DNA of 64,000 nt, from contig CAWKCK010000002.1 of the NCBI GenBank assembly GCA_963848135.1, forward strand, positions 509,684 to 573,683. Direction: 5' to 3'. This DNA comes from an uncultured delta proteobacterium (GTDB lineage Bacteria; Desulfobacterota; Desulfobacteria; Desulfobacterales; SG8-13). Every line of letters begins with the position of its first letter. Position 1 is the first letter of the stretch. Below are positions 14,684 through 37,935 of the stretch, piece after piece. The position numbers and the translations under genes were made by a program. The notes under the pieces are model-generated. The model was not told the DNA's origin. It ran no database searches and worked only from the letters and a program-made list of their open reading frames with translations.

Positions 14684-14693
14684 TTTTCCCCAT

Positions 14694-16682: not shown

Positions 16683-16683
16683 C

Positions 16684-18861: not shown

Positions 18862-18873
18862 GTCGGCCCCCGA

Positions 18874-20772
18874 TTACACCCATAATTTCATTCGTAACCA
18901 GTTGACAAGGCGGTGGGAGGCGATCCAGAGGTAGGATTTTTTCCCGGCCGATATCCGGGCTTCGCCTTCCATGCCGGGCCGCATCCATTCCAGGTTTTCA
19001 AGAATACGGGCGCGCACCCTGAACACATTTTGGTTGTTCACCACCTCGGCGATGGGATTGATCCGCTCGATAACGAACCGAATTTTCTGATCGGGGTGGC
19101 CAACGGATGCCAACTCTCCCTCTTGCCCGGTGGCGACGTTTGCAATCGACGACTCCGGGACGTACAGCTCGGCCCTTAAGGAATCGATGGCGGCAATCTC
19201 AAACAGGACCTTACCCGTCTCGACTGGCGCACCGATCTGCTGCTTCAAATCCTCAGAAACCACCCAGCCGGTGATCGGCGATACCAGGGTTGCCTGTTCG
19301 ATTTTCTTTTCGATTAAACGGATCTCCGCCGCAACCTTGTCGCTCTGCGCCTGTGCGATCTGGGCTTCAGCCGTCTTCCGATCGCGCATCGATGCGGCCA
19401 TCTGCTTTTGATAACCCAACTGTTCGGCTTTCAGGGCGGCCAGTTTCAACCGGAGTTCAGAGGTCTCTAACGTCCCCAAAATAGCCTTACCGCCCTCAAC
19501 GCGATCTCCCGGCTCCACCGACACACTTTTGGTGAAGGTATCGAATGGCGCAACGACCACCTGTTGATTTTTGGCCTGCAACGCAAAAGAGGTTTTAATG
19601 CGGTAATCCCCTTTCGCTGTTGTAAAAAACACTGCCATCAAAAAGACCAGTACGGCGCCCAACTTTACCCAGGTGTGCTCATGCCCCAGCAGCACCCCCA
19701 CCTGCTGTCGGGCCCGAGAGGCCATGCGCGCGCCGAACCACCGATCACTTCGACTCAGTTCCAATAGCCGGGGTGCACAGAGATCACCGATCAACCTGAG
19801 GGTTTCTATTTCCGCCAATCGGTTAAAGGGCTGCTCGGGCGAACGCTCTAATGTCATCACTGCCGTTACGTTCCCGTCTTCGCGTATCGGCAGGCTGAGT
19901 ATACTGGAGGGTCCATGACATGCCGATAACTTCGCGGATCCACGATCGGCATACATCGCAGCGTCATCTTTGGGATGGATCACCTCCACATCCTGGTCCA
20001 GGCATTCCTCCATCGTGGCTTCAATCGCCTGAACCACATCCATTTCGCGGCCGAATGAATCCGTATGGCTCATCGCCCGAACCCGCACGCTGCGGCCATC
20101 GAGAAGGCCAAGACTGACCCGGCTGCAACCCAGTCGGGTTGAAATCTCGTTGCACAACGCCATGGCCGCACTCAAAAACCGCTTTGACTTGTTGACCGTA
20201 TCCAGTACTTCAAGGACCCGCCGCAGACGATTCATGGCCTCATGGTGCATTTTCGTTGTCAGGCGCATCTCATGGTGATCCAGCAGAAGAGCCGTCGTTT
20301 CCAGGCGGGCATGACTCAGTAGTAGCTGATAATGGGAACTTGCCTTGATTCGGAAGGCCGCGGCAGCACGAAGGGCGCCGTCGTTTTGAATCGGAATGAC
20401 AACCAGGTAATTCTGATATTTATCACTCCCTTCCGATGCGGAATTTTCTTTTACAATGACCGTTTGGCCACTTTTCATGACCCTTCGAAACGGTTTTTCG
20501 GCTTTACTGATCCATTTCAGGGAATTGCCGTTATTATTCGGGGTTGGGTATGCGGCCAGGGCCTCTATGCGATTGGCTTCCCCAAGGCGTAGCACCACCC
20601 CGGCATCACATTTGGCCAGGTGGCACTGGGTGGAGAGTAACTCGGATAGGAATCGGTCCGGCGGCCCGTCGTATGAGAACAATTCAGATAGAGCCTTTGC
20701 GTTGAAAGGCCCTGCCGGTCTTTGATTGTCCACAGATCTGCCCGCCGTGGATCCAGCCATAAATAATTCCAT
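18874..20772 (-). CDS. GAF-GAF-TM-HlyD membrane fusion protein
   Basis: 632 aa. Two cytoplasmic GAF-like segments, one TM helix (WVKLGAVLVFLMAVFFTTA), then an HlyD-type lipoyl/coiled-coil/beta-barrel region (LVSPITGWV). Confidence 0.8.
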   Translation of the reverse strand: MELFMAGSTAGRSVDNQRPAGPFNAKALSELFSYDGPPDRFLSELLSTQCHLAKCDAGVVLRLGEANRIEALAAYPTPNNNGNSLKWISKAEKPFRRVMKSGQTVIVKENSASEGSDKYQNYLVVIPIQNDGALRAAAAFRIKASSHYQLLLSHARLETTALLLDHHEMRLTTKMHHEAMNRLRRVLEVLDTVNKSKRFLSAAMALCNEISTRLGCSRVSLGLLDGRSVRVRAMSHTDSFGREMDVVQAIEATMEECLDQDVEVIHPKDDAAMYADRGSAKLSACHGPSSILSLPIREDGNVTAVMTLERSPEQPFNRLAEIETLRLIGDLCAPRLLELSRSDRWFGARMASRARQQVGVLLGHEHTWVKLGAVLVFLMAVFFTTAKGDYRIKTSFALQAKNQQVVVAPFDTFTKSVSVEPGDRVEGGKAILGTLETSELRLKLAALKAEQLGYQKQMAASMRDRKTAEAQIAQAQSDKVAAEIRLIEKKIEQATLVSPITGWVVSEDLKQQIGAPVETGKVLFEIAAIDSLRAELYVPESSIANVATGQEGELASVGHPDQKIRFVIERINPIAEVVNNQNVFRVRARILENLEWMRPGMEGEARISAGKKSYLWIASHRLVNWLRMKLWV

Positions 20773-20859
20773 TTTACCGTCAGAGTCTCATACCGCTAGA
20801 CAAATTGCTTTTTCCTCCCTCAAAGGGCAATTGATGCGTCCCGCTCGGCAGATGGAGGC

Positions 20860-21717
20860 TCACTCAGACTTCAATTGTCCGAGCTCTTTATTTTCCATTT
20901 CAGGAGAGAAGCCGACGGCAACACGTTCACCTGCCGGTCGCTTCAGAGGGTTGGGCACTTCGATGCGAACCCGCAGAGTATCGCTTGCGGCATCCGCAAC
21001 GGCCGAGATGTTGATGATCCGAGCATTCGGCGATGCATCAACGGGGTTTCCGGGAAAGGTAACCCAGGCATTCTGCCCCATTTCCAATTTGCCGGCTTGT
21101 TCCATCGGGACCGGCACATCGATCCAGAGAGGATCGTTTTGAACCAGTCGGATGACAGGTCCAAGTGAACCAATGGATTCCCCCACCTCGACGGTAACAT
21201 CCTCAACACGCCCAGCAATGGGGGCAACAAGGCGCATTTGCGCCAACTGGCTCTGGGCGTGATCGTATCGGCGCCGATACTGTTCTTGCTCCAAAACTGC
21301 CGACTTCAACGAAAGCTCTGCAATTCGGACGTTTAATTTCAAATGCTCAACTTCCCAGTCACTCGCTGCTCCTTTGGCCTGGGCCTGCGCGACCTTTTTC
21401 AAATCGATCCTTTTCTGTGCCAATTCCGCCTTGGCGGCAAGGATTTTGGTGCGGTCTTCCGAAAGCATTTTTAACTGCTGACTCTGGATTCTTTCGGGTT
21501 CATCGTAGAGGCGAACGAGCAGCTGATCCTTTTCGATAATGTGGCCTTCCTTGACCAGGACATCGGATACCCTGCCGGGCACCACGAAGGACAGGGTGAT
21601 ATCGGCATTGGGTGTCGTAATGCCCTGTAACGTCTCAGCGCCGGCAGAAACGTGGGCACACATCAGCGCACACAAAAGCCCTGCCCTAAAAATAGCGGAA
21701 CCAAATCTGGAAATCAT
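20860..21717 (-). CDS. periplasmic adaptor (MFP / HlyD_D23-like) with cleavable signal peptide
   Basis: 285 aa. Signal peptide MISRFGSAIFRAGLLCALMCAHVSAGA. Biotinyl-lipoyl-like hairpin (VAPIAGRVEDV) and a short coiled coil. Confidence 0.8.
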   Translation of the reverse strand: MISRFGSAIFRAGLLCALMCAHVSAGAETLQGITTPNADITLSFVVPGRVSDVLVKEGHIIEKDQLLVRLYDEPERIQSQQLKMLSEDRTKILAAKAELAQKRIDLKKVAQAQAKGAASDWEVEHLKLNVRIAELSLKSAVLEQEQYRRRYDHAQSQLAQMRLVAPIAGRVEDVTVEVGESIGSLGPVIRLVQNDPLWIDVPVPMEQAGKLEMGQNAWVTFPGNPVDASPNARIINISAVADAASDTLRVRIEVPNPLKRPAGERVAVGFSPEMENKELGQLKSE

Positions 21718-22615: not shown

Positions 22616-24418
22616 TCACTCGCTCTTCGGGGTCGAGGAAGAAAACATCTCGGAAATTTTCTCCGGCGGTACGGGTGGGCTGAACAGATAACCCTGGTAA
22701 AGGTCGCACCCCTCTTCTTGCAGGAACTTCAATTGGGGCTTTGTCTCCACACCTTCGGCAACCGTGCGTAGATTCATATTCCGAGACAGATAAATTAAAG
22801 AAGAAACCAGGGCACGGCTCTTGGTGTCCTCGAACAAACTCACAAAAAAGGAGCGATCGATTTTCAGCTCATCCAATGGCAGTCTTCTGAGATAACTCAA
22901 AGAAGAATAGCCGGTGCCGAAATCGTCAATAGACAATTGGAGACCAAGGCCTTTCAAACGATTCATTATTTCAATTTTGCTTTCGATATCCTCCAGCAAC
23001 ATGCTTTCGGTGACTTCAAGTGTCAGCAATTCGGGAAATATACCGCTGTTATGGACGATTTGTTTGAAAGTAGCCAAAATTTCCTGGTTCTGAAATTGTG
23101 CGGTAGACAAATTCACCGCCATACTGATCGGGGGCATACCGGTCTGCTGCCATTCAGACAGCTGGTTACAGGCCTGAGCCAAAACCCATTCCCCGATTGG
23201 GACCATCAGCCCGGTTTCCTCGGCGATGGGAATAAATTTGCTCGGTGGGATTACGCCATGTTCAGGGGTGTTCCATCGCAGCAATGCTTCCACTCCGGTA
23301 ATGGCATTCGTTTTAACATCCAACTTGGGCTGGTAGTACAGTAACAACTCATCCCGGTCGATCGCTTTGCGGAGCCTGGCTTCAAGATTGAGGCGCTTCT
23401 GGTACTGGGTGTTTATTTGTCGGGAGGAAAATTGAAAAGAGTCACCACCATGATTCTTGGCATAATCTTTGGCACTCGAGGCCAGCTGCAACATTGTCAC
23501 GCTGTCGACATCTTCTGTGGGGTACGTCGCAATACCGATGCTGGCAGTCAGGTAGATTTCGTTGTTATCCACAAGCAGCATCGATCGAATCGATTCCAAA
23601 ATACATTCGGCAACCAGCGCGGCATCGCTCTCGTTAGAAAGCCGATGCAGAAGCAGGGTAAAAACACCACCGTCTAAATGAAACAGATTAACAGGGACAT
23701 ACTCATCGATTTCATGATGCCCGAGCAAATCGAGGCCCTTAACGACATCCTTGAAGCGCGCGGTCAACTGTCGCAGAATTTCGTCACCCGCAAAAAGCCC
23801 CAGAGTATCACTGACCTTGTCAAATTGGTCCAACTCGATACTCAACAATGCCAGGTTATCTCTATTCTGTTTAACCGACTTCAAGCCCCATTCCAGACAT
23901 TCCATAAAAAGGTGCCTGTTGGGCAGTTTGGTCAGCGGGTCGTAAAAAGCGAGGCGATCCATATACGCCTTGGCGGCCAGGGTATTGCGAACGCGCAGCC
24001 GGAGTTCACTCGGATCAACCGGCTTGCCAAGGAAATCAGTGGCACCAAGGTCCAGTGCACGCAATTTATCTTTATTGTCTGATGATGCCGTCAATATGAT
24101 GACAGGCAAGTGTTTGAGTTTAGGATGCTCCCGCACTTGTTGTAGTACATCGAATCCCGACAGCTTCGGCATCATCAGATCGAGCAGAAGAAGATCGGGA
24201 CGCTGTTGCTCGAGCGTGGCCATCGCTTGGCTGGAATCTTCAATCAAGACGAAGTTGCTGTACCCCGCCTCCTCCAGAAATGCCTGCACGACTTCCATGT
24301 TGATGGGTTCGTCATCAACGATAACAATGTTTGCATTGAGCATTTGCTCAAACTCCCCCTGAAGTTCTGAGGTTTCATTCCACTCCGTCATATTCTTTTC
24401 TGCATTCGCTGTCTGCAT
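22616..24418 (-). CDS. response regulator with degenerate GGDEF and intact EAL domain (c-di-GMP phosphodiesterase type)
   Basis: 600 aa. REC ([10 protein letters not shown]...[13 protein letters not shown]). The GGDEF position reads DGGVF. EAL motifs are intact ([27 protein letters not shown]). Confidence 0.9.
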
Positions 24419-24650: not shown

Positions 24651-27596
24651 TCAGGCATGTCTACCGGCCGCCACTCGTTTGACCACCTCTGCGCCTTGTG
24701 CCATTACCGGCGGCATGATCGCCTTTGACAGGTGTTTTAACCGCTCGAGCATCTGCCCGGCCTGTTCCACCTGCGCCGATTTGGCGAAAATCTCGAGTTT
24801 TGCGGCCGGCTCCGTGAAATCATCGAAACCAACCGTACCGCCGGCGCCTTTCAACCAATGCGCGATTAGGGCCAATTCTTCCAGGTTTTTATTTTCCCAA
24901 GCCGTTTGCGCCCGCGCCATTTCTTCTTTGAGTTTATCGATAAACCGCAGAATAACTTTCTGGAAGCGCGGAATGGTCCCTAATCGCGAGATAACACGTT
25001 TTTCTGTTGCCGAATTTGACTGGGCTGTTTGACGGTCTGTGACCGGTAATATTTCTTGGGGCGGATCGCCAGCGGTGGTAGACGTCTCGGTTGGTTCAGC
25101 TCCGGGAATGACCAGTCGAGAAACCAGTCCGCGTAATTCGTCCATGGTTTGCTGGATTTCGGCCTCACTTCCGCCCTCCTTTGCCAGTCTCTCGAGCTTG
25201 CCGGCCGGCGCAGTGAATTCATCAAAACCGACGCTGCCGCCAATCCCCTTCAACTTGTGTGCAAAAACCGCGACATCCTCGAGTTTTCCTTGCACTCGCG
25301 CCTGTTCCACTTCCGTTAGTTGATCTTTTAAATGCGCGATAAATCGGACAATCAAATCGCGGAACTTCCCATTACAACCGGGCATTTTGGAATAGATGGG
25401 AGAACCAGCGGCAGATGGAGGCGCATTCATGTGGCTATCCGTTGGCCTATCGGTTGTCAGGGCTGCATCGGATCCCGTTTCTACCGCCACCTTCTGGCCC
25501 CCCAGAAGAGCCCCCATTTGCGCCATAAAACGATCGATATCGATGGGTTTGGAGCAATATCCCGAAAACCCAGCATCCAGGCACTCCTGCTCAAAACCTT
25601 TCATGGCATTGGCCGTTAACGCGATAATCTCCGTATTCAACCCTTGTTTGCGAAGCTGTTTGGTGGCGGTAAAGCCATCCATGACAGGCATGTTAACATC
25701 CATCAGAATGACGTCATAGTGTCCGGCAACAGCTTTTTCCACGCCGATTTGACCGTTTTCAGCCTCGTCTACCATCAGGCCAGCTTCTTGGAGCAGGAGA
25801 CTGAGCAGTTCCCGGTTTTCGGCGCCGTCATCCACGATCAGAACGCGGCCCTCGCTAAACTTCCAGTGCGTCTGTTCGTCCTCGCTGAGCACCTGCGCCT
25901 CTTCCTCCACGGCCTCCGGCTGTAAAAATTGCATCCCTTCCACATCGCCTGTCCCCAGGGTCACCCTGAAGGTACTCCCATTTCCCAATCGGCTTTCGAC
26001 CGTTAAGTCTCCGCCCAAAGCCTGTGCGAACCTGCGGCTGATGGAAAGTCCCAGACCCGTTCCCCCAAAACGACGCGTTACCGCAGAGTCGGCCTGGGTG
26101 AAAGGGTCAAAAACGGATTCTAATTTATCCTCGGGGATACCTATGCCGGTATCGGTAATTTCGACAAACAACAGGGGCCCGGATGCGGATTTTTCAAAAC
26201 GGCAGTTTACGGTGACATGGCCTTGCTCGGTAAATTTGATGGCGTTACCCACCAGGTTGAAGATGATCTGGCGAAACCGCGCCGGGTCGGTCAGGATTTG
26301 TCGCGGCAGTGCGCTTTGCGCCTTGAATTTGAGCGGAATCCCTTTTTCCTGAGCCTTAACACCCAGGACCTGGAAAACCTCGTGTATGATCCGGTGGGGT
26401 TCGGCCCAGACCGCCTCGATGTCCAACCGGCCGGACTCAACCTTGGACAAATCCAGAATATCGTTTATCAGCTCGAGCAGGTTTTTACCGCTGGAGTGAA
26501 TCGTATCGAGATACCTGTGGCTGTCATCCTTGTTTTTACCGTAACCGCGCTTAAGAATCTCTGTAAAGCCGAGGATCGAATTCATGGGTGTGCGAATTTC
26601 ATGGCTCATGTTTGCCAGAAAAGCACTTTTGGCCTGGTTGGCGGCTTCCGCCTGTTCCTTGGATTGGCGCAGCTCGATCTCTTTTTTCTCGAGTTGCGTG
26701 ATGTCATCAAAACTAACCAATACGCCGGCATATTTACCGCCGGCACCGAGCACCGGAGAGCAATTGATGCTGAATGTCAACCATCCCTTGTCGGCATGAC
26801 GGAGACGCAAAATCCGGTTTGTCTGTGCTTCGCCATTGCTGAGGGCCTGAACCCAAGGACGGGCTGACTTTTCGATTATATTCCCTTTAACGTCCATCCA
26901 CGGCAGATCGCCTGACCGGTAGCCGAGAAGATCTTCCGGTGCCCTGCCGAGCATGGCTGCAAATGACTTGTTGGCCAGTACAATCTGCTCCTTGTGATCC
27001 AGCACCAGCAGCCCGCCTGCCAACGTGTCGAGTGCGGAACGCACCCTTCCGGGAATGGCCTTGGACGGATCCAGCTGGCGTAGCACTTTACCGAGATAGA
27101 AGTAAAAGGCGATGAAGCAAAGTACTCCCATGAACAGCACAATCCGAAGAATCGGATTGTGGATCATCCCCTTGAGGCCACCCGCGTTGAGCGCTTTAAA
27201 ACGCAACTCCAGCTGTCCCCACTTGTGCTCACCAGACCATATGGGAACCAGCACTTGCGTATCCTTGGAATATTCACCGCCCATGTCCTGCCAGTGATCA
27301 GCATGATGCGCCGTGGCGACCAAAGCGCCGCCATCCTTCCGTCGCAGGGCCAGCGACAGCAGGTCGGGGTTTCTATTGGTCATCAGATTGAAATCGGTTT
27401 TCAAGCGCTGAACATCTGCTGACAGCACCGCCGACGTGCTGTGCACCGCAATGGCCTCAGCCAAAACAGTACGGCCATCCCGCACGGCGCTCTCTCTATC
27501 CGGAACAATGCCCAGCAAAAAGGCAAGCATGATAAGGCTGACAGTTAAGCCGACGAGCCCTATGACGACCCGGTCTTTGACGTTCAATCTTTTCAT
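24651..27596 (-). CDS. membrane hybrid sensor histidine kinase: TM-periplasmic-TM sensor, PAS, HisKA, HATPase, REC, Hpt, Hpt
   Basis: 981 aa. H-box SHEIRTPMNSILGF, G-boxes DTGIGI / GGTGLGLSI, REC VLIVDDGAENRE...ILMDVNMPVMDG, two Hpt motifs (HKLKGIGGSVG and HWLKGAGGTVG). The start ATG overlaps the giant-gene stop (ATGA). Confidence 0.9.
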   Translation of the reverse strand: MKRLNVKDRVVIGLVGLTVSLIMLAFLLGIVPDRESAVRDGRTVLAEAIAVHSTSAVLSADVQRLKTDFNLMTNRNPDLLSLALRRKDGGALVATAHHADHWQDMGGEYSKDTQVLVPIWSGEHKWGQLELRFKALNAGGLKGMIHNPILRIVLFMGVLCFIAFYFYLGKVLRQLDPSKAIPGRVRSALDTLAGGLLVLDHKEQIVLANKSFAAMLGRAPEDLLGYRSGDLPWMDVKGNIIEKSARPWVQALSNGEAQTNRILRLRHADKGWLTFSINCSPVLGAGGKYAGVLVSFDDITQLEKKEIELRQSKEQAEAANQAKSAFLANMSHEIRTPMNSILGFTEILKRGYGKNKDDSHRYLDTIHSSGKNLLELINDILDLSKVESGRLDIEAVWAEPHRIIHEVFQVLGVKAQEKGIPLKFKAQSALPRQILTDPARFRQIIFNLVGNAIKFTEQGHVTVNCRFEKSASGPLLFVEITDTGIGIPEDKLESVFDPFTQADSAVTRRFGGTGLGLSISRRFAQALGGDLTVESRLGNGSTFRVTLGTGDVEGMQFLQPEAVEEEAQVLSEDEQTHWKFSEGRVLIVDDGAENRELLSLLLQEAGLMVDEAENGQIGVEKAVAGHYDVILMDVNMPVMDGFTATKQLRKQGLNTEIIALTANAMKGFEQECLDAGFSGYCSKPIDIDRFMAQMGALLGGQKVAVETGSDAALTTDRPTDSHMNAPPSAAGSPIYSKMPGCNGKFRDLIVRFIAHLKDQLTEVEQARVQGKLEDVAVFAHKLKGIGGSVGFDEFTAPAGKLERLAKEGGSEAEIQQTMDELRGLVSRLVIPGAEPTETSTTAGDPPQEILPVTDRQTAQSNSATEKRVISRLGTIPRFQKVILRFIDKLKEEMARAQTAWENKNLEELALIAHWLKGAGGTVGFDDFTEPAAKLEIFAKSAQVEQAGQMLERLKHLSKAIMPPVMAQGAEVVKRVAAGRHA

Positions 27597-30500
27597 ACCC
27601 TATCTTTCTCCTGATCGGTAACTGATGATTCTTCTGCCGATTTCTTTTTCGGTTCAGTTTTTCGTGGCGCCTGGTCCAATATGGTTTCCAGGGATTCATC
27701 ATCGTCGGGGTGGTCGCCATCTCTTTTTCTTGCCAGTACCGGCAGCGGATCCAAGATCTGCCAAGCCGGAATAGAGGACAGCAGCGTACTCAGCAACATA
27801 CCGCCCCGAATAAGCCAGACAACATAACCCACGGAAAGACCAACCGAGGATACAATCGCAGATCCGAGATACACTTTGTTTATCTGATTGTCATTGGCGA
27901 TCTCTTCTTTGATATCATCCAGAGAATTAACCATATTGTGATAGGCGCGCGCCGTCATCGTATTATTAAAGCTGATCTGTCGTGCCGCCCGATAGAGGCC
28001 GGGGTCTGCAGCTGTATCTTTCTGAGGCCCCCCCGCCCGGTTAGATAACCGCGCCGCATTGTCATTGACGTCTGCAACCGCCGCTCGATTCTGAGTAAAG
28101 CTGCGGAAGACGTTAATCAGGAACGGTGTCCGCGCAGGCGATGATCCGCGTTGTCGCGGGGCGCTTTCTTCGGAAGGACCCGGGTTCACCGGTGGTGCTT
28201 CCACGGCTTCCGAGATATTTTCCACTGTAGCCTCGTCCGGCTCTACGGCGGGCTCGCTGACCTCAGAATCAGTCGCTGTCTCCGGTTCTGCCGGGTCACT
28301 ACTGTCTGTAGGAAGGGAACTTTCCGTCGGGAGCGTTGGCGGTGGTACCACGGTGATCACGGAGACGACCGCGCCGCTTTGCTGGGCGACGGAAATGCCG
28401 TCTTCGGAGGATTCTACCGTAAAGCTGCCATTAATGATGGACGTGCCTGTCGGGGTGAAACGGACACCCACCTGACCCTGGGCAAAGGAGATATAGTCGC
28501 CGTTGTGGATCGGGGTGACACCGTCTGACAGATACAGGGTGCCGTTCGTGATGTTGGAAATCCGGAAGTAAGTCACCTCGGCGCCATCGTCGGGATTGCG
28601 GTCAATGACGATCAGGCCCGACTGAACCGTTGCCGGGGTTATAATTCCACTCACCTGCGGGGTGTCACCCACCGGGGTTGCCGTAATGATCTTTATCCCC
28701 GAAATGGGGGCAGCCACGCCATCGTCCACGCTAGCATCGATTGTAAAGCTGTTGTCATAGTTTATCGATGGCGTGAAAACCACTCCTGCCAACAGGGCAT
28801 TCACATCGGCAATGGGTCCGCTGGCCGTCCAAGTGCCTCCGGAAAAGTTTGCGGTCACCCCCCCTGAGGTACCGGTGCTCAGGCTGCCGGCTGCCGGATC
28901 GGAAAGAGTCAGGGTTACGGTGACATTGGCGCTGTCTATATCAGCGATGACGATGTCTGAAAGATCGAGGGGAATGTCTTCGGTATAGGTCTCTGCCGCA
29001 TTCAAGTTGGCGGCGGTCGGGGCAACATTGAGATGCGCCACCGGCGCCGTGCCCGCGCTGGTCAGGCTTTCAAGAGTTCCCCTATCATCAGTATAATTAG
29101 CGGTTACAGAGATCACTTTACCTTCATCAACCAGTACTGTGGTATAGGTGCTCGAGGTGGCTCCACTGATAATTACTCCATCATGAAACCACTGGTAAGT
29201 GATCGCACCAGTCGCCCCGTCAGGATCGTTCACGATCGCTGTCAATGTATCACCCACGGTAGGCGTTAAATTGTCGATAGCAACAGTCCCCACATCGTTG
29301 GTGTTAGCCACCGTGATATCAAACTGCTCCTCCACCCAGGCGTTGCTCGCATCGGTCGCCCGCACCGTAATCGTCACCGTGCCCACATCGGCGTTTGCCG
29401 GCATGCCGCTAAAGGTTCGCGTGCCTGCGGTAAACGCGAGCCAACTTGGCAGACCCAAGGCCGTATACGTTAAGCTGTCGCCCGCATCCACATCATTGAA
29501 GGTGTTGGCCGCAAACTGGAAACTAAATGGCGTATCCTCTGTGGCGCTTTGATCGGGGATCACATTGGCCACCGCCGGCGCATCGTTCACCGGCGTGATA
29601 TCCAAAGTCGCGCTGCCGGCCACCGTGTCGGTCCCGTCGGTAATCGTGTAGGTAAAGCTCACTGAGGTGTCGTCATCGGCCGCCGGTGTGTAGTCCCAGG
29701 TACCGTTGCCGTTATCCACCAAGGCACCGTTTCCGACACTGATCGCAAGACCGGTCGCTGTCAGACTGTCACCCTCGATATCATTGGCATTGACTAAAAG
29801 ATCGGCCTGGGTGATCAACCGCGCGCCGCTGTCTTCTCCGATCGCTGCCAGAATTACCGGGCTGGTCGTGGGCGCATCGTTCACCGGCGTGATATCCAAA
29901 GTCGCGCTGCCGGCCACCGTGTCGGTCGCGTCGGTAATCGTGTAGGTAAAGCTCACTGAGGTGTCGTCATCGGCCGCCGGTGTGTAGTCCCAGGTACCGT
30001 TGCCGTTATCCACCAAGGCACCGTTTCCGACACTGATCGCAAGACCGGTCGCTGTCAGACTGTCACCCTCGATATCATTGGCATTGACTAAAAGATCGGC
30101 CTGGGTGATCAACCGCGCGCCGCTGTCCTCACCGATCGCTGCCAGAGTTACCGGGCTGGTCGTGGGCGCATCGTTCACCGGCGTGATATCCAAAGTCGCG
30201 CTGCCGGCCACCGTGTCGGTCCCGTCGGTAATCGTGTAGGTAAAGCTCACTGAGGTGTCGTCATCGGCCGCCGGTGTGTAGTCCCAGGTACCGTTGCCGT
30301 TATCCACCAAGGCACCGTTTCCGACACTGATCGCAAGACCGGTCGCTGTCAGACTGTCACCCTCGATATCATTGGCATTGACTAAAAGATCGGCCTGGGT
30401 GATCAACCGCGCGCCGCTGTCTTCTCCGATCGCTGCCAGAATTACCGGGCTGGTCGTGGGCGCATCGTTCACCGGCGTGATATCCAAAGTCGCGCTGCCG

Positions 30501-33500
30501 GCCACCGTGTCGGTCCCGTCGGTAATCGTGTAGGTAAAGCTCACTGAGGTGTCGTCATCGGCCGCCGGTGTGTAGTCCCAGGTACCGTTGCCGTTATCCA
30601 CCAAGGCACCGTTTCCGACACTGATCGCAAGACCGGTCGCTGTCAGACTGTCACCCTCGATATCATTGGCATTGACTAAAAGATCGGCCTGGGTGATCAA
30701 CCGCGCGCCGCTGTCCTCACCGATCGCTGCCAGAGTTACCGGGCTGGTCGTGGGCGCATCGTTCACCGGCGTGATATCCAAAGTCGCGCTGCCGGCCACC
30801 GTGTCGGTCCCGTCGGTAATCGTGTAGGTAAAGCTCACTGAGGTGTCGTCATCGGCCGCCGGTGTGTAGTCCCAGGTACCGTTGCCGTTATCCACCAAGG
30901 CACCGTTTCCGACACTGATCGCAAGACCGGTCGCTGTCAGACTGTCACCCTCGATATCATTGGCATTGACTAAAAGATCGGCCTGGGTGATCAACCGCGC
31001 GCCGCTGTCTTCTCCGATCGCTGCCAGAATTACCGGGCTGGTCGTGGGCGCATCGTTCACCGGCGTGATATCCAAAGTCGCGCTGCCGGCCACCGTGTCG
31101 GTCCCGTCGGTAATCGTGTAGGTAAAGCTCACTGAGGTGTCGTCATCGGCCGCCGGTGTGTAGTCCCAGGTACCGTTGCCGTTATCCACCAAGGCACCGT
31201 TTCCGACACTGATCGCAAGACCGGTCGCTGTCAGACTGTCACCCTCGATATCATTGGCATTGACTAAAAGATCGGCCTGGGTGATCAACCGCGCGCCGCT
31301 GTCTTCACCGATCGCTGCCAGAGTTACCGGGCTGGTCGTGGGCGCATCGTTCACCGGCGTGATATCCAAAGTCGCGCTGCCGGCCACCGTGTCGGTCCCG
31401 TCGGTAATCGTGTAGGTAAAGCTCACTGAGGTGTCGTCATCGGCCGCCGGTGTGTAGTCCCAGGTACCGTTGCCGTTATCCACCAAGGCACCGTTTCCGA
31501 CACTGATCGCAAGACCGGTCGCTGTCAGACTGTCACCCTCGATATCATTGGCATTGACTAAAAGATCGGCCTGGGTGATCAACCGCGCGCCGCTGTCTTC
31601 ACCGATCGCTGCCAGAGTTACCGGGCTGGTCGTGGGCGCATCGTTCACCGGCGTGATATCCAAAGTCGCGCTGCCGGCCACCGTGTCGGTCCCGTCGGTA
31701 ATCGTGTAGGTAAAGCTCACTGAGGTGTCGTCATCGGCCGCCGGTGTGTAGTCCCAGGTACCGTTGCCGTTATCCACCAAGGCACCGTTTCCGACACTGA
31801 TCGCAAGACCGGTCGCTGTCAGACTGTCACCCTCGATATCATTGGCATTGACTAAAAGATCGGCCTGGGTGATCAACCGCGCGCCGCTGTCCTCTCCGAT
31901 CGCTGCCAGAGTTACCGGGCTGGTCGTGGGCGCATCGTTCACCGGCGTGATATCCAAAGTCGCGCTGCCGGCCACCGTGTCGGTCCCGTCGGTAATCGTG
32001 TAGGTAAAGCTCACTGAGGTGTCGTCATCGGCCGCCGGTGTGTAGTCCCAGGTACCGTTGCCGTTATCCACCAAGGCACCGTTTCCGACACTGATCGCAA
32101 GACCGGTCGCTGTCAGACTGTCACCCTCGATATCATTGGCATTGACTAAAAGATCGGCCTGGGTGATCAGCCGCGCGCCGCTGTCCTCACCGATCGCTGC
32201 CAGAGTTACCGGGCTGGTCGTGGGCGCATCGTTCACCGGCGTGATATCCAAAGTCGCGCTGCCGGCCACCGTGTCGGTCCCGTCGGTAATCGTGTAGGTA
32301 AAGCTCACTGAGGTGTCGTCATCGGCCGCCGGTGTGTAGTCCCAGGTACCGTTGCCGTTATCCACCAAGGCACCGTTTCCGACACTGATCGCAAGACCGG
32401 TCGCTGTCAGACTGTCACCCTCGATATCATTGGCATTGACTAAAAGATCGGCCTGGGTGATCAACCGCGCGCCGCTGTCCTCACCGATCGCTGCCAGAGT
32501 TACCGGGCTGGTCGTGGGCGCATCGTTCACCGGCGTGATATCCAAAGTCGCGCTGCCGGCCACCGTGTCGGTCCCGTCGGTAATCGTGTAGGTAAAGCTC
32601 ACTGAGGTGTCGTCATCGGCCGCCGGTGTGTAGTCCCAGGTACCGTTGCCGTTATCCACCAAGGCACCGTTTCCGACACTGATCGCAAGACCGGTCGCTG
32701 TCAGACTGTCACCCTCGATATCATTGGCATTGACTAAAAGATCGGCCTGGGTGATCAACCGCGCGCCGCTGTCCTCACCGATCGCTGCCAGAGTTACCGG
32801 GCTGGTCGTGGGCGCATCGTTCACCGAGTTCACTGTAAGGGTGACGTTTGCTGATCCATTTGAATAGGCTGTGGTTCCGCCACCGGGTGTCGAATCGCCT
32901 AATCTTTGCGTCCCATTTATGGATGCCAGATCCGTGGTTTGATCCCAGGCGCGAAAATCAAATCCGGCTGTTTCACCATTGATCCCATCTGGTACGTACC
33001 TCAACCATGTTGATTCAGACAGGAGTAGTGCAGCATTTGAACCGACAGGACCAAAATCGGTCCACCCGCTGGACCCATTTGTGGAGTATTCCCACGTACC
33101 AGAACCCGTTTTGGCGAATACCGCTATACCCAGAGTGTCTCCGTCATTATCATTTATTGTGATTGACGCATCACCGAGCATACCACTTACCTGAACCGCC
33201 GCACTGGTAGTGTCTTCATCTGTGCTCGGCATGCTGTATGTACCGCTTACCGTCGGTGCCGTATTTGCAACTGGTGATGAATAACTGATCACCAGTTGCG
33301 GGGGTGTGGTCCCCTCTCGACTGTCGTAAGTGAAGATGACTTGACCAAAGTCGTCACTGGCCAGCATGAGCCCGTTGTTGGTTTTGGCACCATCGTTCCA
33401 GGCTTGCACTAGGGCAGTAATATCCCAGGCATGCGGCCCGATCGAGCTTGTAGTGAGCGTGTCAACAGCGGTGGAATCGATTGCTCCGCCCGGTGTGCTC

Positions 33501-36500
33501 CACGGTGTGTCTAAGGGTATACCCGGCAACCGGTTGTTCCAGTTGGCTGCGGTGGTGCCGCCGGTGCCTTCGTCCCAGGCTTGGGTGACTTCATAGACGT
33601 GGATGTCAGTTGAGCCGATATCGGCCTTGCTCACCGCTTGGAGCTGCAAGGTGGCATTAGTAATAACGGCACCCGCGGGAATAGCGCTGAGATCAAACTG
33701 AAGTAAGACATGCCCTTCTCCCAATCCGCCACCGGATTCGTCCATGACCAGACTAGTGGATGTGCCGTAATTATTCGCGGGGTTGTTTTCGTCAATGTAC
33801 GTATCTTTGATCGCACCCACTATGGTTGTCACTGACAGTGCCGGACCGAACTCTGAAGTACTACCAAAATTATTGCCACCAAGATCCTCGGTTGCCGTTG
33901 CCGTTACCGTGGTGGCATTGGTCATGGTGGCACCGGAGATGGTTTCGTTGAATGTCTGCGTGCCCGTCCCGCTGCTGGTTACCGTAACGGCGCCAAGAAA
34001 AACTTCACCGCCACCATAGCCATTGGCGTTGATCCCATTGGGATTGTCAAAGAACTCGATTCGATAATCTCCGGCGGGGACGTCAAGATCAAATTGAACA
34101 TCCAGGTCCGCGCCGTTCTGGGTGACCAAACTGAGAACCGGGTGGTTCAGCAAGTCGTTGGGGCCGCTGTCACCGTCGCCAGCATCGTTGGCGGTGATCT
34201 GGTCATTGTCAAGGTCGATGGCCATCTCGTTGACGGAAAAAATCTCGTTGCCAAGGATCACGTTGTCGAGCGCAGCGACACCGAGGTCATCGACGACAAC
34301 CCCGTTGTTGTGTCCGGCGATGCGGTTGCCTTCACCCACGTTAACCCCACCAACCCGGTTGTTGTCCGGCCCGTCCCAGATGACGACGCCATGATCGCCG
34401 GCGGTAACCACATCGCCGTTTTGGTCGAGGCCGATCCAGTTGCCGATGATCTGGTTATCGTCCGTGCCGACTTCACGAATAGCTACGCCAGCGTAGATGT
34501 TGCCACTGAGGAGGTTGCGATCCGCCGCGTCGGTTCCGCCGATGGTGTTGAAATCGGCCCCGTCACGCAGCTTCACCCCGACATCGTTGCCGGCCACGGT
34601 GGTGCCGTTGGTCGCAAGACCCAGGTAGTTGCCAATGATGGTGTTGTAATCGGAGCGGATCTCAATGGCATCGCCGCCGGAGAACCCGGTGACGGAAAGC
34701 CCGCGGATCGTCGAACCCTTACTGCCATGCTCGAGTCGGAGAGCATCCTCGTTCGTCAGCGCCGAACCATCGATCCGGACAACCGGCGCACTGCCATAGT
34801 CCGGCTCGCTGGTACCGTCGATGACCAGGGTGCCGGTGATGTTGGGCAGTGCGGCGCTGAGGTTGATCGTGTGCGGTCCGAATCCGGTAATGTCGAAGTA
34901 GATATTGTTGAGACCGTCGGTATTGTTAGCAGCGATGATCGCTTCGCGCAGCGAGATCTTTCCATCGGTGCCCGGGTTGCCGATCAAGGCAGCAACGGAC
35001 GATGTATTGCCATCAGCGACATCGTCAGACGTCGTGACCGTCAAGGTGCTGCTTGGTGTTGCTGATGGGTTGCTGCCGGACACGACCGTTAACGCATCAA
35101 TGTCTTCATCGTCTTCGAGTGGATTCAGATTTAGCGACGATCCATCCATCAACAAGGCCGCATCCGCCACCGCTGTTCCGTTCACCAAATTCGTCTTTAC
35201 GATCTGCAAATGGAAGATGTCTTGCTGCTCAGCCGTGATGCCACTTGTTCCGATGCCACCGTCCCCGACATCTACCGACACCAGCAATTCACCGGCCGAA
35301 AGTGTCTCGTCACCTAAAGTTGTGTTCGTTTCGAGCAGTTCCAGACCATCGATAGCCGCCGTGATACCAACATCGTTTCCGGCGACCAAGAGTTCACGTG
35401 TGCCGTCCGAGGTGCGGTAGAGATAAACATCGCTCGGATGGTCTTCATCAACCAACAGGAAGTCACCGGCTTTCAGCGTCGTGTCGCCGAAAGCCATGTT
35501 CTGCTCGATCAGCGTGAGGGCTTTCAGGTCATCTCCCGCTCCTCCTCCACCCACCACGCCGGGCACCACAACCGTGAAGGTCCCGCTGCTGTAATCACCA
35601 GCCATATCAGGTCGAAAACGAATAATGTCGTCTCGCGCTACGTTCCCCAACTGCGCGCTGCTTTCTGCACCATTCGTCGAGAACAGCAGGTCGCCTGCTT
35701 GCAGGTTAACGGCGGGTATCGTGTCGAGTGTGATGTCGCGTGTCACAAAGTGCAGGGCATCGATGTCCAGGTCGGTGCCAGCAAGTGCTTCCAGGTTCAA
35801 AGCGGACGAAAATGTGCCGTTGGTCGTCCCAGGATCAAACTGCAGATTCGGATCCGCCAACTCGATTACTTCCCCGTTTTCCCACGAGTTCAATCCCGGT
35901 GCGCCACTGGATATGACATTGCCAGTTGTGGACAGCCAAAGAGCAGACTGAGCCATTTCGTATGCACCCACGTCGGGCAAAATACCACGGCTCACATCGC
36001 GCTGGTCAACCGATGGAGCTTCAACGTTAGTGCCGGCATCAATTGCCGGGCTACCCGCTAAAAGGGCGTGGGTTTTTGTTTGCCCACCATTATAATCCAA
36101 TCCACCAAGCATTGGATCAGTCATGATCTGGTCGCCAAGGAACGTGTCCAACCCAGCGGTATTCTGGCTATCGATGTTGTTGCCGAGCGTTATCAGGGCA
36201 CCGTTTGTGTTTCCACCAGTATTGTTTGAAAGAATCGAATTTTTAAGTCTGATGTTGCCAGATCCTGATTTGAAAATACCGCCACCAGAGCCTGCAATAT
36301 TATCTGCAATCGTAGAATTCGTGATATCAATCGTGTTTCTTGTAAAAATCGCGCCGCCATTGCTGGCTGCTGTATTTCCACTGAGTGTCGAATTGACGAT
36401 TGTTCCCGTTACGCCATTGTTTATATAAATCCCTCCCCCGACGTCAGCACTGTTCCCCTCAATCGTTACGCCTTCAAAGTCAATGACTCCAGAAATAAAT

Positions 36501-37855: not shown

Positions 37856-37935
37856 GGGTTCAGAGTTCAGCGTTCTGGGTTCAGGGTTAGCGTCGGGTTA
37901 GGGTTCAGTCGAGTTCAGAGCGTTCTGGGTTTGTT
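37856..37935. repeat. one-armed GTTCNNG heptad-repeat element (copy B) between the four-helix-bundle gene and giant gene 1
   Basis: GGGTTCAGAGTTCAGCGTTCTGGGTTCAGGGTTAGCGTCGGGTTAGGGTTCAGTCGAGTTCAGAGCGTTCTGGGTT. It abuts the ATG of giant gene 1 and contains the stop codon and last five codons of the 4HB gene. Confidence 0.7.

What the first reader, a model, noticed from the sequence alone, without database searches (positions are those of the whole stretch)
27734..27868. Shared C-terminal hydrophobic anchor with W-x(2,3)-DPLPVL motif in both giants: a possible new sorting/anchoring signal (giant 1 copy)
Both giants end the same way: a Pro/Glu/Asp-rich linker, a ~100-aa helical-looking region, and then a conserved block.

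Giant 1: GSAIVSSVGLSVGYVVWLIRGGMLLSTLLSSIPAWQILDPLPVLARKRD.
Giant 2: GAAAGFGASVMVGYVLWAFRGTSLLLGALSAMPMWRSFDPLPVLLGRDK (41109-41252).

The block is one or two hydrophobic helices (SVGYV.W..RG..LL..L.S.P.W), an invariant DPLPVL, and a charged tail. It is not LPXTG, PEP-CTERM, a T9SS CTD, an RTX signal or a beta-barrel. Conservation between proteins that otherwise differ in their C-terminal halves suggests a dedicated membrane anchor or a recognition signal for the adjacent machinery or sensors.
Basis: partly seen in the sequence, partly recalled or inferred. Interest (0 to 1): 0.72.

Follow-up and report, generated by a model that had tools for sequence, protein, structure and literature searches.

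The report
Giant surface proteins' conserved membrane tail
Both giant proteins end in an undescribed, strongly conserved membrane-anchoring tail found in thousands of related giants from several bacterial phyla, and the next gene almost always encodes a matching membrane sensor, which suggests the tail tethers the exported giant to the cell and reports its state to a signalling pathway.

Summary
Both giants, on the minus strand, end in the same block: a small-residue-rich hydrophobic helix, RGG, an LLSS amphipathic helix, W-x3-DPLPVL, a basic patch and an acidic tail.

The block is a large protein family, not a two-paralogue quirk. There are 5,179 clusters at 50% identity, and more than 500 genome loci in Desulfobacterota, Nitrospirota, Gamma/Betaproteobacteria and Planctomycetota. 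The module is always at the extreme C-terminus. No Pfam, NCBIfam, PADLOC or PDB sequence match was found, and no paper.

Every intact carrier has the LEPR-XLL leader, with or without DUF4347. The SecA-like/PqqD-M50-HlyD/HlyD genes are usually nearby.

Homologous machinery in Alphaproteobacteria serves LEPR-XLL giants that lack the tail, so it is not the general secretion signal.

The new result is a tight gene pairing. In 64 of 68 loci the next gene encodes a sensor with a specific, also undescribed, 2-TM periplasmic module. The pairing is paralogue-specific: type A tails go with the histidine kinase, type B tails with PAS-GGDEF-HD-GYP. Tail and sensor module are both absent from 72,556 plasmid records.

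Best model, inferred and not shown: an inner-membrane tether that docks to its cognate sensor.

The parts
27596..28039 (-). Giant 1 C-terminal module (last 148 aa): juxtamembrane helix, hydrophobic helix, RGG, amphipathic helix, W-x3-DPLPVL, basic patch, acidic tail
   Evidence: AF2 gives mean pLDDT 73 with one long helix over residues 13-89 of this segment.
27875..28003 (-). Giant 1 juxtamembrane helix (aa 3285-3327), with conserved hydrophobic positions spaced 3 or 4 residues apart (heptad-like)
   Evidence: AF2 helix with pLDDT up to 94. Conserved L/D/R/E positions at -57 to -36 in 290 unique sequences.
27809..27874 (-). Giant 1 hydrophobic helix 1 (VYLGSAIVSSVGLSVGYVVWLI), with small residues every fourth position (glycine-zipper-like)
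   Evidence: Contains the most hydrophobic 19-mer of the protein, KD 1.73. The Hessa sum is +2.8 kcal/mol, which is marginal. G/A/G/G at -34/-30/-26/-22 are conserved.
27752..27808 (-). Giant 1 RGG turn plus the amphipathic LLSS helix (MLLSTLLSSIPAWQIL)
   Evidence: R 97%, G 88%, G 92%. The L/L/S/S periodicity is conserved without gaps.
27734..27751 (-). Giant 1 DPLPVL motif
   Evidence: W93, D97 and P98 are invariant in an HMM-selected 53-sequence alignment.
27596..27733 (-). Giant 1 charged tail: RKR, then an acidic run with a DDDESLExIL-type motif
   Evidence: Tail length after the motif is 6-81 aa, median 45.
28145..28345 (-). Giant 1 Pro/Glu/Asp-rich linker (67 aa) between the passenger domains and the C-terminal module
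   Evidence: Comparable hydrophobic-poor runs occur in 114 family members, by a crude measure.
41046..41420 (-). Giant 2 C-terminal module (type B): helix 1 at 41184-41249, RGT at 41175-41183, amphipathic helix at 41127-41174, DPLPVL at 41109-41126, tail at 41046-41108
   Evidence: Type-B relatives include P0003, P0011, P0013 and P0028.
27042..27596 (-). N-terminal 2-TM periplasmic sensor module of the hybrid histidine kinase (gene 24651-27596). Its ATG overlaps the giant 1 stop codon (ATGA).
   Evidence: AF2 pLDDT 85.6. No Pfam family. The module is adjacent to the tail gene in 64 of 68 loci.
40438..40992 (-). Paralogous 2-TM sensor module of the PAS-GGDEF-HD-GYP protein (gene 38551-40992), starting 50 nt after the giant 2 stop
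   Evidence: 35% identity to the kinase module, E 3e-44. Five of five type-B tails elsewhere are followed by this sensor type.
22616..24418 (-). REC-GGDEF-EAL response regulator, the third gene of the conserved order giant, kinase, regulator
37732..37855 (-). Giant 1 N-terminal LEPR-XLL leader (FEPLEPRLLLSG). It has no hydrophobic signal-peptide core.
   Evidence: NCBIfam NF012209 scores 23.9 bits against a cutoff of 17.
12683..21717 (-). Putative export machinery: HlyD (20860-21717), GAF-HlyD (18874-20772), PqqD-M50(HEMGH)-HlyD (16684-18861), SecA-like ATPase (14694-16682), TolC-like protein with SPOR domain (12683-14878)

Best explanation
The block is the core of an undescribed C-terminal module of about 110-130 aa that defines a large subclass of LEPR-XLL giant surface proteins.

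Proposed mechanism:
1. The giant is exported N-terminus first by the SecA-like ATPase and the PqqD-M50-HlyD/HlyD/TolC-like conduit. The N-terminal LEPR-XLL leader is the export signal. This is inferred.
2. The C-terminal module emerges last. Its glycine-zipper-like helix stays in the inner membrane, in or beside the translocon, and halts transfer. The Pro/acidic linker is left threaded through the envelope conduit, and the repeat-rich passenger is outside the cell. This is inferred.
3. The module's membrane and juxtamembrane parts dock to the 2-TM periplasmic module of the sensor encoded immediately downstream. That sensor is a hybrid histidine kinase for type A tails and a PAS-GGDEF-HD-GYP protein for type B tails.
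4. The presence, load or loss of the giant is thereby reported to a phosphorelay and c-di-GMP network. Alternatively, that network controls retention of the giant. This step is also inferred.

Shown here: the module exists, it is conserved, it is always C-terminal, it is restricted to LEPR-XLL giants, it is dispensable for the machinery type, and it co-occurs in a paralogue-specific way with the sensor module.
For: Family size and position:
- The family has 5,179 clusters at 50% identity, and the match reaches the extreme C-terminus in all 150 listed.
- At least 501 genome loci span four or five phyla.
- The motif lies 31-82 aa before the stop codon in 79 of 80 loci.

Conservation beyond a plain anchor:
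- A 45-residue core aligns without gaps in 290 unique sequences.
- R, GG, P-A-W, D-P-L-P and L are near-invariant, and small residues recur every fourth position.
- This is much more than hydrophobicity alone requires, which argues for a conserved protein partner.

Membrane segment:
- It is the only strongly hydrophobic segment of either giant.

Carriers:
- In 27 of 39 loci with a visible ORF start, the LEPR/DUF4347 N-terminus is in the same reading frame. Seven more have it in a broken upstream frame. The rest are masked, frameshifted or variant leaders.
- Full-length members start with LEPRxLLSAD and carry DUF4347 with variable passengers.
- Machinery genes are in view in 20 of the 27 intact loci.

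Not the export signal:
- LEPR-XLL giants beside homologous machinery in Methylosinus and Mesorhizobium lack the tail, as does the Variovorax giant.
- The plasmid collection has no match to the tail.

Sensor coupling:
- In 64 of 68 loci with at least 3 kb downstream, the abutting same-strand gene carries the sensor module. The median ORF offset is -27 nt, and all 64 are kinase-type.
- In the window the giant 1 stop overlaps the kinase start.
- Giant 2 and five of five other type-B tails are followed by the paralogous module fused to PAS-GGDEF(-HD-GYP).
- The sensor module is also absent from all plasmids.

Linker:
- A hydrophobic-poor linker of median ~100 aa ends a median 69 aa before helix 1 (a crude measure).
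- By my own estimate, about 100 residues at 3.1-3.4 A each is long enough to span a TolC/HlyD-type conduit.
Against: - No experiment or complex prediction shows membrane insertion, topology or binding to the sensor.
- Helix 1 is only marginally hydrophobic on the Hessa scale (+1.5 and +2.8 kcal/mol).
- AF2 on the monomer gives one continuous helix of about 77 residues. It shows no hairpin or defined membrane topology.
- The positive-inside rule is not decisive, because basic residues flank both ends of helix 1.
- Gene adjacency and shared absence could reflect one horizontally transferred operon, in which the sensors only regulate expression.
- Four of 68 loci lack the adjacent sensor.
- The absence data rest on plasmids and chromids and on three inspected systems, mostly Alphaproteobacteria. 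Lineage and function are therefore confounded.
Confidence: 0.5

Rival explanations
1. The tail is a plain inner-membrane (tail) anchor only. The downstream kinase and c-di-GMP genes are transcriptional or post-translational regulators that share the operon, with no physical coupling to the tail.
For: - The hydrophobic helix is followed by a basic patch.
- The sensors are generic signalling architectures: PAS, HisKA, REC, GGDEF, EAL and HD-GYP.
- Operon co-inheritance alone would explain the adjacency.
Against: - A simple anchor does not need a gap-free 45-residue core with near-invariant R-G-G, P-A-W and D-P-L-P across phyla.
- The pairing is paralogue-specific: 64 of 64 for type A with the kinase module, and five of five plus the window for type B with the GGDEF-HD-GYP module.
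- Start and stop codons overlap.
- Both modules are absent together from the plasmid collection.
Confidence: 0.2
2. The tail is a substrate of the PqqD-M50 intramembrane metalloprotease. The hydrophobic block, with its RGG and proline helix breakers, is cut within the membrane to release the giant. This would be regulated intramembrane proteolysis, and it could operate in addition to anchoring.
For: - The M50 domain keeps HEMGH and an NxxPxxxxD-like motif (NGNPFLRYD), so it is probably active.
- Its nearest NCBIfam relatives are intramembrane RiPP leader proteases.
- The tail contains conserved helix-breaking residues.
Against: - The same PqqD-M50-HlyD fusion is kept in systems whose giants have no tail. 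Its conserved job is therefore more likely to be binding and cutting the N-terminal LEPR leader, since PqqD domains bind leader peptides (established knowledge).
- From general knowledge of the family, site-2 proteases cut type II (N-in) helices. A stop-transfer tail would be N-out.
Confidence: 0.1
3. The tail is a C-terminal secretion or recognition signal read by the SecA-like/M50-HlyD/TolC machinery, analogous to the C-terminal signal of type 1 secretion substrates.
For: - Strong sequence conservation.
- Frequent proximity to the machinery genes.
Against: - Homologous machinery is paired with LEPR-XLL giants that lack the tail.
- The tail has no match in plasmids, although at least 11 plasmids carry SecA-like plus PqqD-M50-HlyD pairs.
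- A conserved N-terminal leader already exists, and a leader-binding PqqD domain sits on the machinery.
Confidence: 0.07
4. The tail is a sorting signal processed by a dedicated sortase-like enzyme of the exosortase, rhombosortase or archaeosortase type, which would attach the giant to a lipid or to the cell wall.
For: It has a C-terminal position and a three-part look: motif, hydrophobic helix and basic residues.
Against: - No such enzyme is encoded in the window.
- No NCBIfam sorting-signal model matches at E<=10 or across 53 members.
- The order is reversed, with the helix before the motif.
- A 30-80 aa acidic tail follows the motif, unlike known signals.
Confidence: 0.03
5. The module is an oligomerisation element. 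A coiled coil plus a glycine-zipper helix would bundle several giants into a fibre or pore, independently of any sensor.
For: - Heptad-like spacing of conserved hydrophobic residues before the block, and a small-xxx-small stripe within it.
- A long continuous helix in the AF2 model.
Against: - This does not explain the paralogue-specific pairing with sensors.
- It was not testable with a monomer model.
- It is compatible with the best explanation as an added feature.
Confidence: 0.1

Closest known systems
LapA retention module with LapD/LapG c-di-GMP control (Pseudomonas fluorescens-type T1SS adhesins)
   Same: - A giant repeat adhesin is exported through a TolC-type conduit and kept on the cell by a terminal module.
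- Membrane c-di-GMP signalling proteins with a 2-TM periplasmic domain are encoded alongside.
- The best PDB fold match of the sensor's periplasmic domain is the output domain of a LapD orthologue (4u64). The match is weak, at E 4.5e-3, and is not separated from generic PDC/PAS-like sensor domains.
   Different: - No sequence homology.
- The polarity is reversed. LapA is held by an N-terminal folded plug in the outer-membrane channel and is exported C-terminus first. Here a C-terminal hydrophobic helix would hold the protein at the inner membrane.
- No LapG-like protease is encoded in the window.
- The partner is a hybrid histidine kinase or a PAS-GGDEF-HD-GYP protein, not a degenerate GGDEF-EAL receptor.
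- The motor is SecA-like, not an ABC transporter.
Three-part C-terminal sorting signals (LPXTG/sortase, PEP-CTERM/exosortase, GlyGly-CTERM/rhombosortase, PGF-CTERM and similar)
   Same: C-terminal position, a short signature motif, a hydrophobic helix and a basic cluster. They are specific to surface proteins.
   Different: - The motif follows the helix rather than preceding it.
- The conserved core is 45 aa plus a juxtamembrane helix, against about 25-35 aa in total.
- A 30-80 aa acidic tail follows.
- There is no cognate processing enzyme nearby.
- No NCBIfam or Pfam model matches.
Type 1 secretion C-terminal signal with RTX repeats
   Same: It is found on giant adhesins that use HlyD/TolC-type conduits. 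Some DUF4347 proteins, such as the Phaeobacter one, end in this way.
   Different: - The window's tails have no GGxGxD repeats.
- They are hydrophobic and highly conserved, unlike T1SS signals.
- The carriers have an N-terminal LEPR-XLL leader instead.
Stop-transfer and tail anchors, including the membrane-anchor part of Gram-positive surface proteins exported by SecA2-type systems
   Same: A single C-terminal hydrophobic helix followed by basic residues would arrest N-to-C translocation driven by a SecA-family motor.
   Different: Those anchors are conserved only in hydrophobicity. Here sequence-level conservation across phyla and a dedicated neighbouring sensor point to a specific protein partner.

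Membership tests
LEPR-XLL (NF012209) / DUF4347 giant proteins | N-terminal LEPRxLL leader within the first ~60 aa | tested here: met
   Giant 1 residues 28-41 score 23.9 bits and giant 2 residues 26-45 score 22.4 bits, against a cutoff of 17. The same leader is seen in full-length family members.
LEPR-XLL (NF012209) / DUF4347 giant proteins | DUF4347 domain following the leader | tested here: met
   The N-terminal 320 aa of giant 1 retrieve PF14252-annotated proteins. Four of four full-length tail-bearing members carry PF14252. DUF4347 also occurs without the tail, for example in Phaeobacter and Variovorax.
Three-part C-terminal sorting signals (LPXTG, PEP-CTERM, GlyGly-CTERM, PGF-CTERM, MYXO-CTERM and others) | Match to a curated sorting-signal model | tested here: not met
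   NCBIfam gave 0 families at E<=10 on both tails. Across 53 members no family was matched by more than one member.
Three-part C-terminal sorting signals | Order is motif, then helix, then basic cluster at the very C-terminus, within ~35 aa | tested here: not met
   Here the order is helix, RGG, amphipathic helix, motif, basic patch and then 30-80 aa of acidic tail.
Three-part C-terminal sorting signals | Cognate sortase, exosortase or rhombosortase encoded in the genome or neighbourhood | tested here: not met
   None among the annotated window ORFs. The rest of the genome could not be examined.
T1SS RTX substrates | GGxGxD nonapeptide repeats before a C-terminal signal | tested here: not met
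   The last 300 aa of both giants have no such repeats. No HemolysinCabind hit was found in the last 199 aa.
T9SS C-terminal domain / autotransporter beta-barrel | C-terminal beta-sandwich sorting domain or beta-barrel | tested here: not met
   No Pfam or NCBIfam hit. The AF2 model of the last 148 aa is entirely helical or coil.
LapA-type retention module | N-terminal folded plug with a LapG di-alanine cleavage site, and LapG/LapD partners | tested here: not met
   The module here is C-terminal and hydrophobic. No LapG-like peptidase appears among the window ORFs. The fold resemblance of the sensor's periplasmic domain to a LapD orthologue is weak.
Proposed new family: LEPR-giant C-terminal tether module | Gap-free core G-S-A-x3-S-x-G-L-S-V-G-Y-V-V-W-L-I-R-G-G-x-L-L-S-S-L-L-S-S-x-P-A-W-x3-D-P-L-P-V-L within ~80 aa of the stop codon | tested here: met
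   Both giants carry it. It is seen in 290 unique sequences and at the end of all 150 listed profile hits.
Proposed new family: LEPR-giant C-terminal tether module | Cognate 2-TM sensor module encoded immediately downstream | tested here: met
   In the window, the kinase (24651-27596) follows giant 1 and the GGDEF-HD-GYP protein (38551-40992) follows giant 2. Elsewhere this holds in 64 of 68 loci, and in five of five type-B loci.
Proposed new family: LEPR-giant C-terminal tether module | Inner-membrane insertion and physical contact with the sensor | not testable with these tools
   Only monomer AF2 was available, and no topology predictor or complex prediction. Experiments are needed.

The most novel reading that the evidence does not exclude
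The tail and its cognate 2-TM sensor form the inner-membrane end of a trans-envelope contact or force sensor.

A giant fibre of 3,400-5,000 aa would be exported N-terminus first by a previously undescribed SecA-like/M50-HlyD/TolC system. It would stay threaded through the conduit. Attachment, tension or loss at the cell surface would be transmitted through its glycine-zipper helix to a histidine kinase or c-di-GMP enzyme.

This would be a new class of outside-in surface sensing. It is the mirror image of the inside-out LapD/LapG/LapA system. Paralogous tail-sensor pairs would provide insulated channels within one cell.
Probability: 0.3. Interest if true: 0.9.

Novelty: new variant of a known kind. 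Interest (0 to 1): 0.8.

Why it matters
Giant surface proteins are among the largest and least understood bacterial genes. How they are held on the cell, and how cells know that they are engaged, is known only for a few T1SS adhesins of the Lap type.

This work defines two linked, undescribed protein modules:
- a C-terminal tether on LEPR-XLL giants;
- a 2-TM periplasmic sensor module.

Together they occur in thousands of proteins across Desulfobacterota, Nitrospirota, Gamma/Betaproteobacteria and Planctomycetota.

They give a simple sequence marker that separates cell-tethered from tail-less substrates of an apparently uncharacterised SecA-like/M50-HlyD/TolC export system. They also give a concrete, testable hypothesis for coupling a surface fibre to two-component and c-di-GMP signalling.

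Cultured carriers make experiments feasible:
- Desulfosarcina alkanivorans PL12
- Denitromonas halophila SFB-3
- Noviherbaspirillum suwonense DSM 26001
- Aquabacterium soli SJQ9

All four appear.

Tried and rejected
- **Word-indexed protein searches.** The word-indexed protein database returned only proteins shorter than about 550 aa, mostly fragments. It could not test N-terminus/C-terminus co-occurrence. I used genome loci and the exhaustive profile search instead.
- **Apparent stand-alone small versions.** Three candidates were checked. L032 contains a masked run of N, and L038 is probably frameshifted. The exact Ramlibacter P0088 sequence was not on record. There is no evidence for free-standing copies.
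- **AF2 on the last 148 aa.** It gave a single long helix. No hairpin or topology could be deduced, so a fold search on it was pointless.
- **PDB sequence search.** A profile search of PDB sequences gave only coiled-coil noise: RAD50, FAP119 and MakB.
- **PADLOC.** Nothing found.
- **Sporadic single-member hits.** PspC, an Inovirus capsid protein and a luciferase-like family were each matched by only one of 53 members. I treated these as compositional or chimeric noise.
- **Literature.** Eight searches found no description of the tail, the LEPR-XLL system or a SecA-like/M50/HlyD secretion system. One search was badly designed, because 'lepr' matched leprosy papers.
- **Strict coupling of the tail to the SecA-like gene.** Considered and rejected. 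Alphaproteobacterial clusters have the SecA-like gene but their giants lack the tail.
- **DUF3467.** This small protein is present in the tail-less alphaproteobacterial clusters but was not found in the window or the 80 loci. With only two tail-less clusters inspected, I do not lean on this anticorrelation.
- **Linker-length analysis.** The measure is crude and sometimes picks up folded passenger segments. It is used only qualitatively.
Full report
**1. Observation**

The window carries two giant genes on the minus strand. Giant 1 is 27593..37855 (3420 aa) and giant 2 is 41043..56033 (4996 aa).

Each protein ends with:
- a Pro/Glu/Asp-rich linker, which in giant 1 is 67 aa at 28145-28345;
- a helical stretch;
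- a hydrophobic block;
- DPLPVL;
- a charged tail.

The two C-termini align over 108 aa at 32% identity, E 8e-16. The block holds the most hydrophobic 19-residue window of each giant. Kyte-Doolittle values are 1.73 and 1.99. Summed Hessa values are only +2.8 and +1.5 kcal/mol, so the helix is marginal as a membrane segment.

**2. It is a large family, always at the C-terminus, and not in the domain libraries**

No known family matched:
- Pfam and NCBIfam gave nothing on the last 199 aa, even at E<=10.
- No family was shared by more than one of 53 members.
- PADLOC and a PDB sequence-profile search were empty or gave coiled-coil noise.

Homologues are very numerous:
- A word-indexed search with the two tails gave 97 homologues, all short fragments. 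Of these, 95 carried the motif.
- An exhaustive profile search of 1.84 billion cluster representatives gave 5,179 hits at E<=1e-3, 3,612 at E<=1e-10 and 381 at E<=1e-30. In all 150 listed hits the match ran to within a few tens of residues of the protein end.
- A scan of one genome per species gave at least 501 confirmed loci. They are in Desulfobacterota, Nitrospirota (Thermodesulfovibrionia), Gammaproteobacteria (Thiotrichales, Chromatiales, Granulosicoccaceae), Burkholderiales/Rhodocyclales and Planctomycetota.
- Cultured carriers include Desulfosarcina alkanivorans, Denitromonas halophila, Noviherbaspirillum suwonense and Aquabacterium soli.

In 79 of the 80 loci kept, the motif lies 31-82 aa before the stop codon of a large ORF.

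**3. Anatomy**

In 290 unique sequences a 45-residue core aligns without a single gap:

(T/V)VVGSAIAVSTGLSVGYVVWLIRGGxLLSSLLSSLPAW(Q/R)xLDPLPVLA

Part of the apparent invariance in that count comes from the regular expression I used to anchor it. An HMM-selected 53-sequence alignment independently gives L82, W93, D97 and P98 invariant. It gives Y, V, W, R, G, L, P, L, P and L at 90% or more.

Features of the module:
- Small residues recur at -34, -30, -26 and -22 (G/A/G/G), a glycine-zipper-like stripe.
- Only one of the four helical stripes is variable. This suggests a helix buried among other helices rather than facing lipid. That reading is my inference.
- After R-G-G comes an LLSS-LLSS amphipathic helix that is too short to span a bilayer alone.
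- Then come P-A-W, D-P-L-P-V-L, a basic patch and an acidic run. The acidic run often contains a DDxESLExI motif.
- Upstream, conserved hydrophobic positions spaced 3 or 4 residues apart (-57, -53, -50, -46, -40, -36) give a heptad-like juxtamembrane helix.

AF2 on the last 148 aa of giant 1 gave mean pLDDT 73. It models one continuous helix over residues 13-89, with breaks at P91 and at D97-P98. Topology cannot be read from a monomer model.

**4. Which proteins carry it**

Both giants start with the LEPR-XLL leader, above the NF012209 cutoff. They have no classical hydrophobic signal peptide.

Among 39 loci where the start of the tail-bearing ORF is visible:
- 27 have the LEPR/DUF4347 N-terminus in the same ORF;
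- 7 have it in an upstream broken frame;
- the remaining 5 are masked by N runs, frameshifted, or carry variant leaders such as MEERILHSAD or LAPRLLFSAD.

Full-length database members start with LEPRxLLSAD. They carry DUF4347 followed by variable passengers: cadherin-like, Big_9, PKD or CBM96.

**5. Context in the window**

Downstream of giant 1, all on the minus strand, lie:
- a hybrid histidine kinase;
- a REC-GGDEF-EAL regulator;
- HlyD;
- GAF-HlyD;
- a PqqD-M50-HlyD fusion with intact HEMGH and NGNPFLRYD motifs, whose nearest NCBIfam relative is the daptide intramembrane leader protease;
- a SecA-like ATPase of 662 aa that lacks the C-terminal part of SecA;
- a TolC-like protein with a SPOR domain.

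No sortase-like enzyme is present. Machinery genes are visible in 20 of the 27 intact loci.

**6. The tail is not the general export signal**

In the plasmid/chromid collection:
- DUF4347 occurs in 125 records.
- SecA-like and PqqD-M50-HlyD genes lie side by side in at least 11 alphaproteobacterial records.
- The tail has no match at E<=1e-3.

I inspected four cases:
- Methylosinus sp. C49 has a giant of 8,847 aa. It carries a typical LEPRxLLxAD leader. It sits beside DUF3467, HlyD, PqqD-M50-HlyD, SecA-like, HlyD and TolC genes. It ends without any hydrophobic block.
- Mesorhizobium ciceri R30 has a giant of 10,518 aa with a typical LEPRxLLxAD leader. Its neighbours are DUF3467, HlyD, HlyD, PqqD-M50-HlyD and SecA-like genes; no TolC gene is annotated in that stretch. 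It also ends without a hydrophobic block.
- The 16,239-aa Variovorax paradoxus giant has a LEARYMF leader and DUF4347. It is followed by TolC, HlyD, HlyD and M50-HlyD genes. It also lacks the tail.
- A Phaeobacter DUF4347 protein is a classical RTX substrate with no leader.

So the N-terminal leader is common to all substrates of this machinery type. The tail marks a subclass.

**7. The tail is paired with a specific sensor**

The hybrid kinase's ATG overlaps the giant 1 stop codon (ATGA). Its first 185 residues form TM1, a periplasmic domain of about 120 aa, TM2 and an LRxLDPS stretch.

The PAS-GGDEF-HD-GYP protein that starts 50 nt after the giant 2 stop has a paralogous N-terminal module. 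It is 35% identical, E 3e-44.

Evidence across other loci:
- In 73 of the 80 loci, the ORF after the tail gene encodes a full-length match to this module (E 1e-28 to 1e-108). It is followed by REC-GGDEF-EAL in at least 59 loci (E<1e-40).
- Restricting to loci with at least 3 kb downstream, 64 of 68 have it on the same strand. The median ORF-start offset is -27 nt. All 64 score better with the kinase-type module.
- Five of five independent type-B tails are followed within 2-45 nt by PAS-GGDEF(-HD-GYP) proteins. Their N-termini score 188-305 bits with the giant 2-type module, against 73-115 bits with the kinase type.
- The sensor module, like the tail, has no match in the plasmid collection.
- It has no Pfam family.

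The AF2 model of the sensor module has pLDDT 85.6 and shows two membrane helices flanking an alpha/beta domain. Foldseek against PDB gives only weak matches, none at E<=1e-3. The top match is the periplasmic output domain of a LapD orthologue (4u64, E 4.5e-3). PDC or extracytoplasmic-PAS sensor domains follow. This supports a PDC-like fold. It does not support LapD membership.

**8. Interpretation**

Shown:
- a new, strongly constrained C-terminal module, restricted to LEPR-XLL giants;
- it is dispensable for the machinery type;
- it co-occurs, is co-absent and co-diversifies with a new 2-TM sensor module.

Inferred:
- The module is the last part to leave the ribosome and the only hydrophobic segment. 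It arrests N-to-C export and stays in the inner membrane.
- The linker lies in the HlyD/TolC conduit. A hydrophobic-poor run of median ~100 aa ends a median 69 aa before helix 1 (a crude measure). By my estimate that is long enough to span the envelope.
- The conservation pattern, far beyond what an anchor needs, reflects docking to the cognate sensor.
- The giant would thereby act as the input of a phosphorelay and c-di-GMP circuit, or as the target of that circuit.

I put about 0.7 on inner-membrane tethering and about 0.5 on the combined tether-plus-sensor model.

Rivals:
- anchor only, with purely regulatory neighbours;
- substrate of the M50 protease, for release;
- export signal, which is disfavoured;
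- sortase-type signal, which is disfavoured;
- oligomerisation element.

**9. Comparison and novelty**

In function the closest system is LapA/LapD/LapG. The polarity, the anchoring membrane, the motor, the partner type and the sequence all differ.

The three-part C-terminal sorting signals share only a superficial plan. They fail every membership feature I tested.

I found no paper describing the tail, the sensor module or the LEPR-XLL/SecA-like system in the searchable library. That library is incomplete.

I rate the tail as a new variant of a known kind: a terminal retention or anchor module on a secreted giant adhesin, linked to c-di-GMP signalling. It is built from two protein modules that have no described relatives.

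Noticed in passing
window 27042-27596 (-) and 40438-40992 (-): The N-terminal 185 aa of the hybrid kinase and of the PAS-GGDEF-HD-GYP protein are paralogous 2-TM periplasmic sensor modules with no Pfam family. The AF2 model has pLDDT 85.6. Its weak best fold match is the periplasmic domain of a LapD orthologue, followed by PDC-like sensor domains.
   Followed up: yes
window 27734-27751 (-) versus 27063-27077 (-) and 40456-40470 (-): The giants' tails (W-x-x-L-D-P-L-P-V-L) and both sensors (L-R-x-L-D-P-S..P) each carry an L-D-P motif directly after their last hydrophobic helix. It could be a shared interface element or a coincidence.
   Followed up: no
window 12683-21717 (-): This gene set looks like an undescribed trans-envelope export system for LEPR-XLL giants. 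It comprises HlyD, GAF-HlyD, a PqqD-M50(HEMGH)-HlyD fusion related to RiPP leader proteases, a C-terminally truncated SecA-like ATPase, and a TolC-like protein. Homologous sets occur in Alphaproteobacteria and Burkholderiales.
   Followed up: partly
window 12683-14878 (-): The TolC-like outer-membrane protein carries an N-terminal SPOR (peptidoglycan-binding) domain. Its listed ORF overlaps the end of the SecA-like ORF by about 185 nt, so its true start is probably further downstream.
   Followed up: no
window about 29600-32800 (-): Giant 1 contains 11 almost identical tandem-95 repeats of 95 aa each. The repeats are prone to recombination or assembly collapse, so the true copy number is uncertain.
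   Followed up: no
window 37915-38313 (-); L088 8976-9341: A 132-aa ORF lies between giant 2's sensor and giant 1. In the related contig L088 the gene at the same position is called 23S_rRNA_IVP (PF05635), so its position appears conserved.
   Followed up: no
L084 17726-18046; L085 16784-17089: Alphaproteobacterial LEPR-XLL systems whose giants lack the tail and sensor encode a small DUF3467 protein right after the giant. No homologue was found in the window or in the 80 tail-bearing loci.
   Followed up: partly
L081/L083 (Variovorax paradoxus CP063167.1, 19413-68132): A 16,239-aa giant with a LEPR-like leader, DUF4347 and tandem-95 repeats is followed by TolC, HlyD, HlyD and M50-HlyD genes and then a type II secretion cluster. 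No SecA-like gene is in view and the giant has no C-terminal tail.
   Followed up: partly
window 18874-20772 (-): One of the periplasmic adaptor proteins has a cytoplasmic GAF domain before its membrane helix. This hints that the conduit itself may be regulated by a small ligand.
   Followed up: no
L017 6845-11929; L044; L075: Several genomes carry two tail-bearing giants in tandem, or a second giant after a GGDEF-type sensor. Multi-giant loci like the window's are therefore common, although gene order varies.
   Followed up: partly
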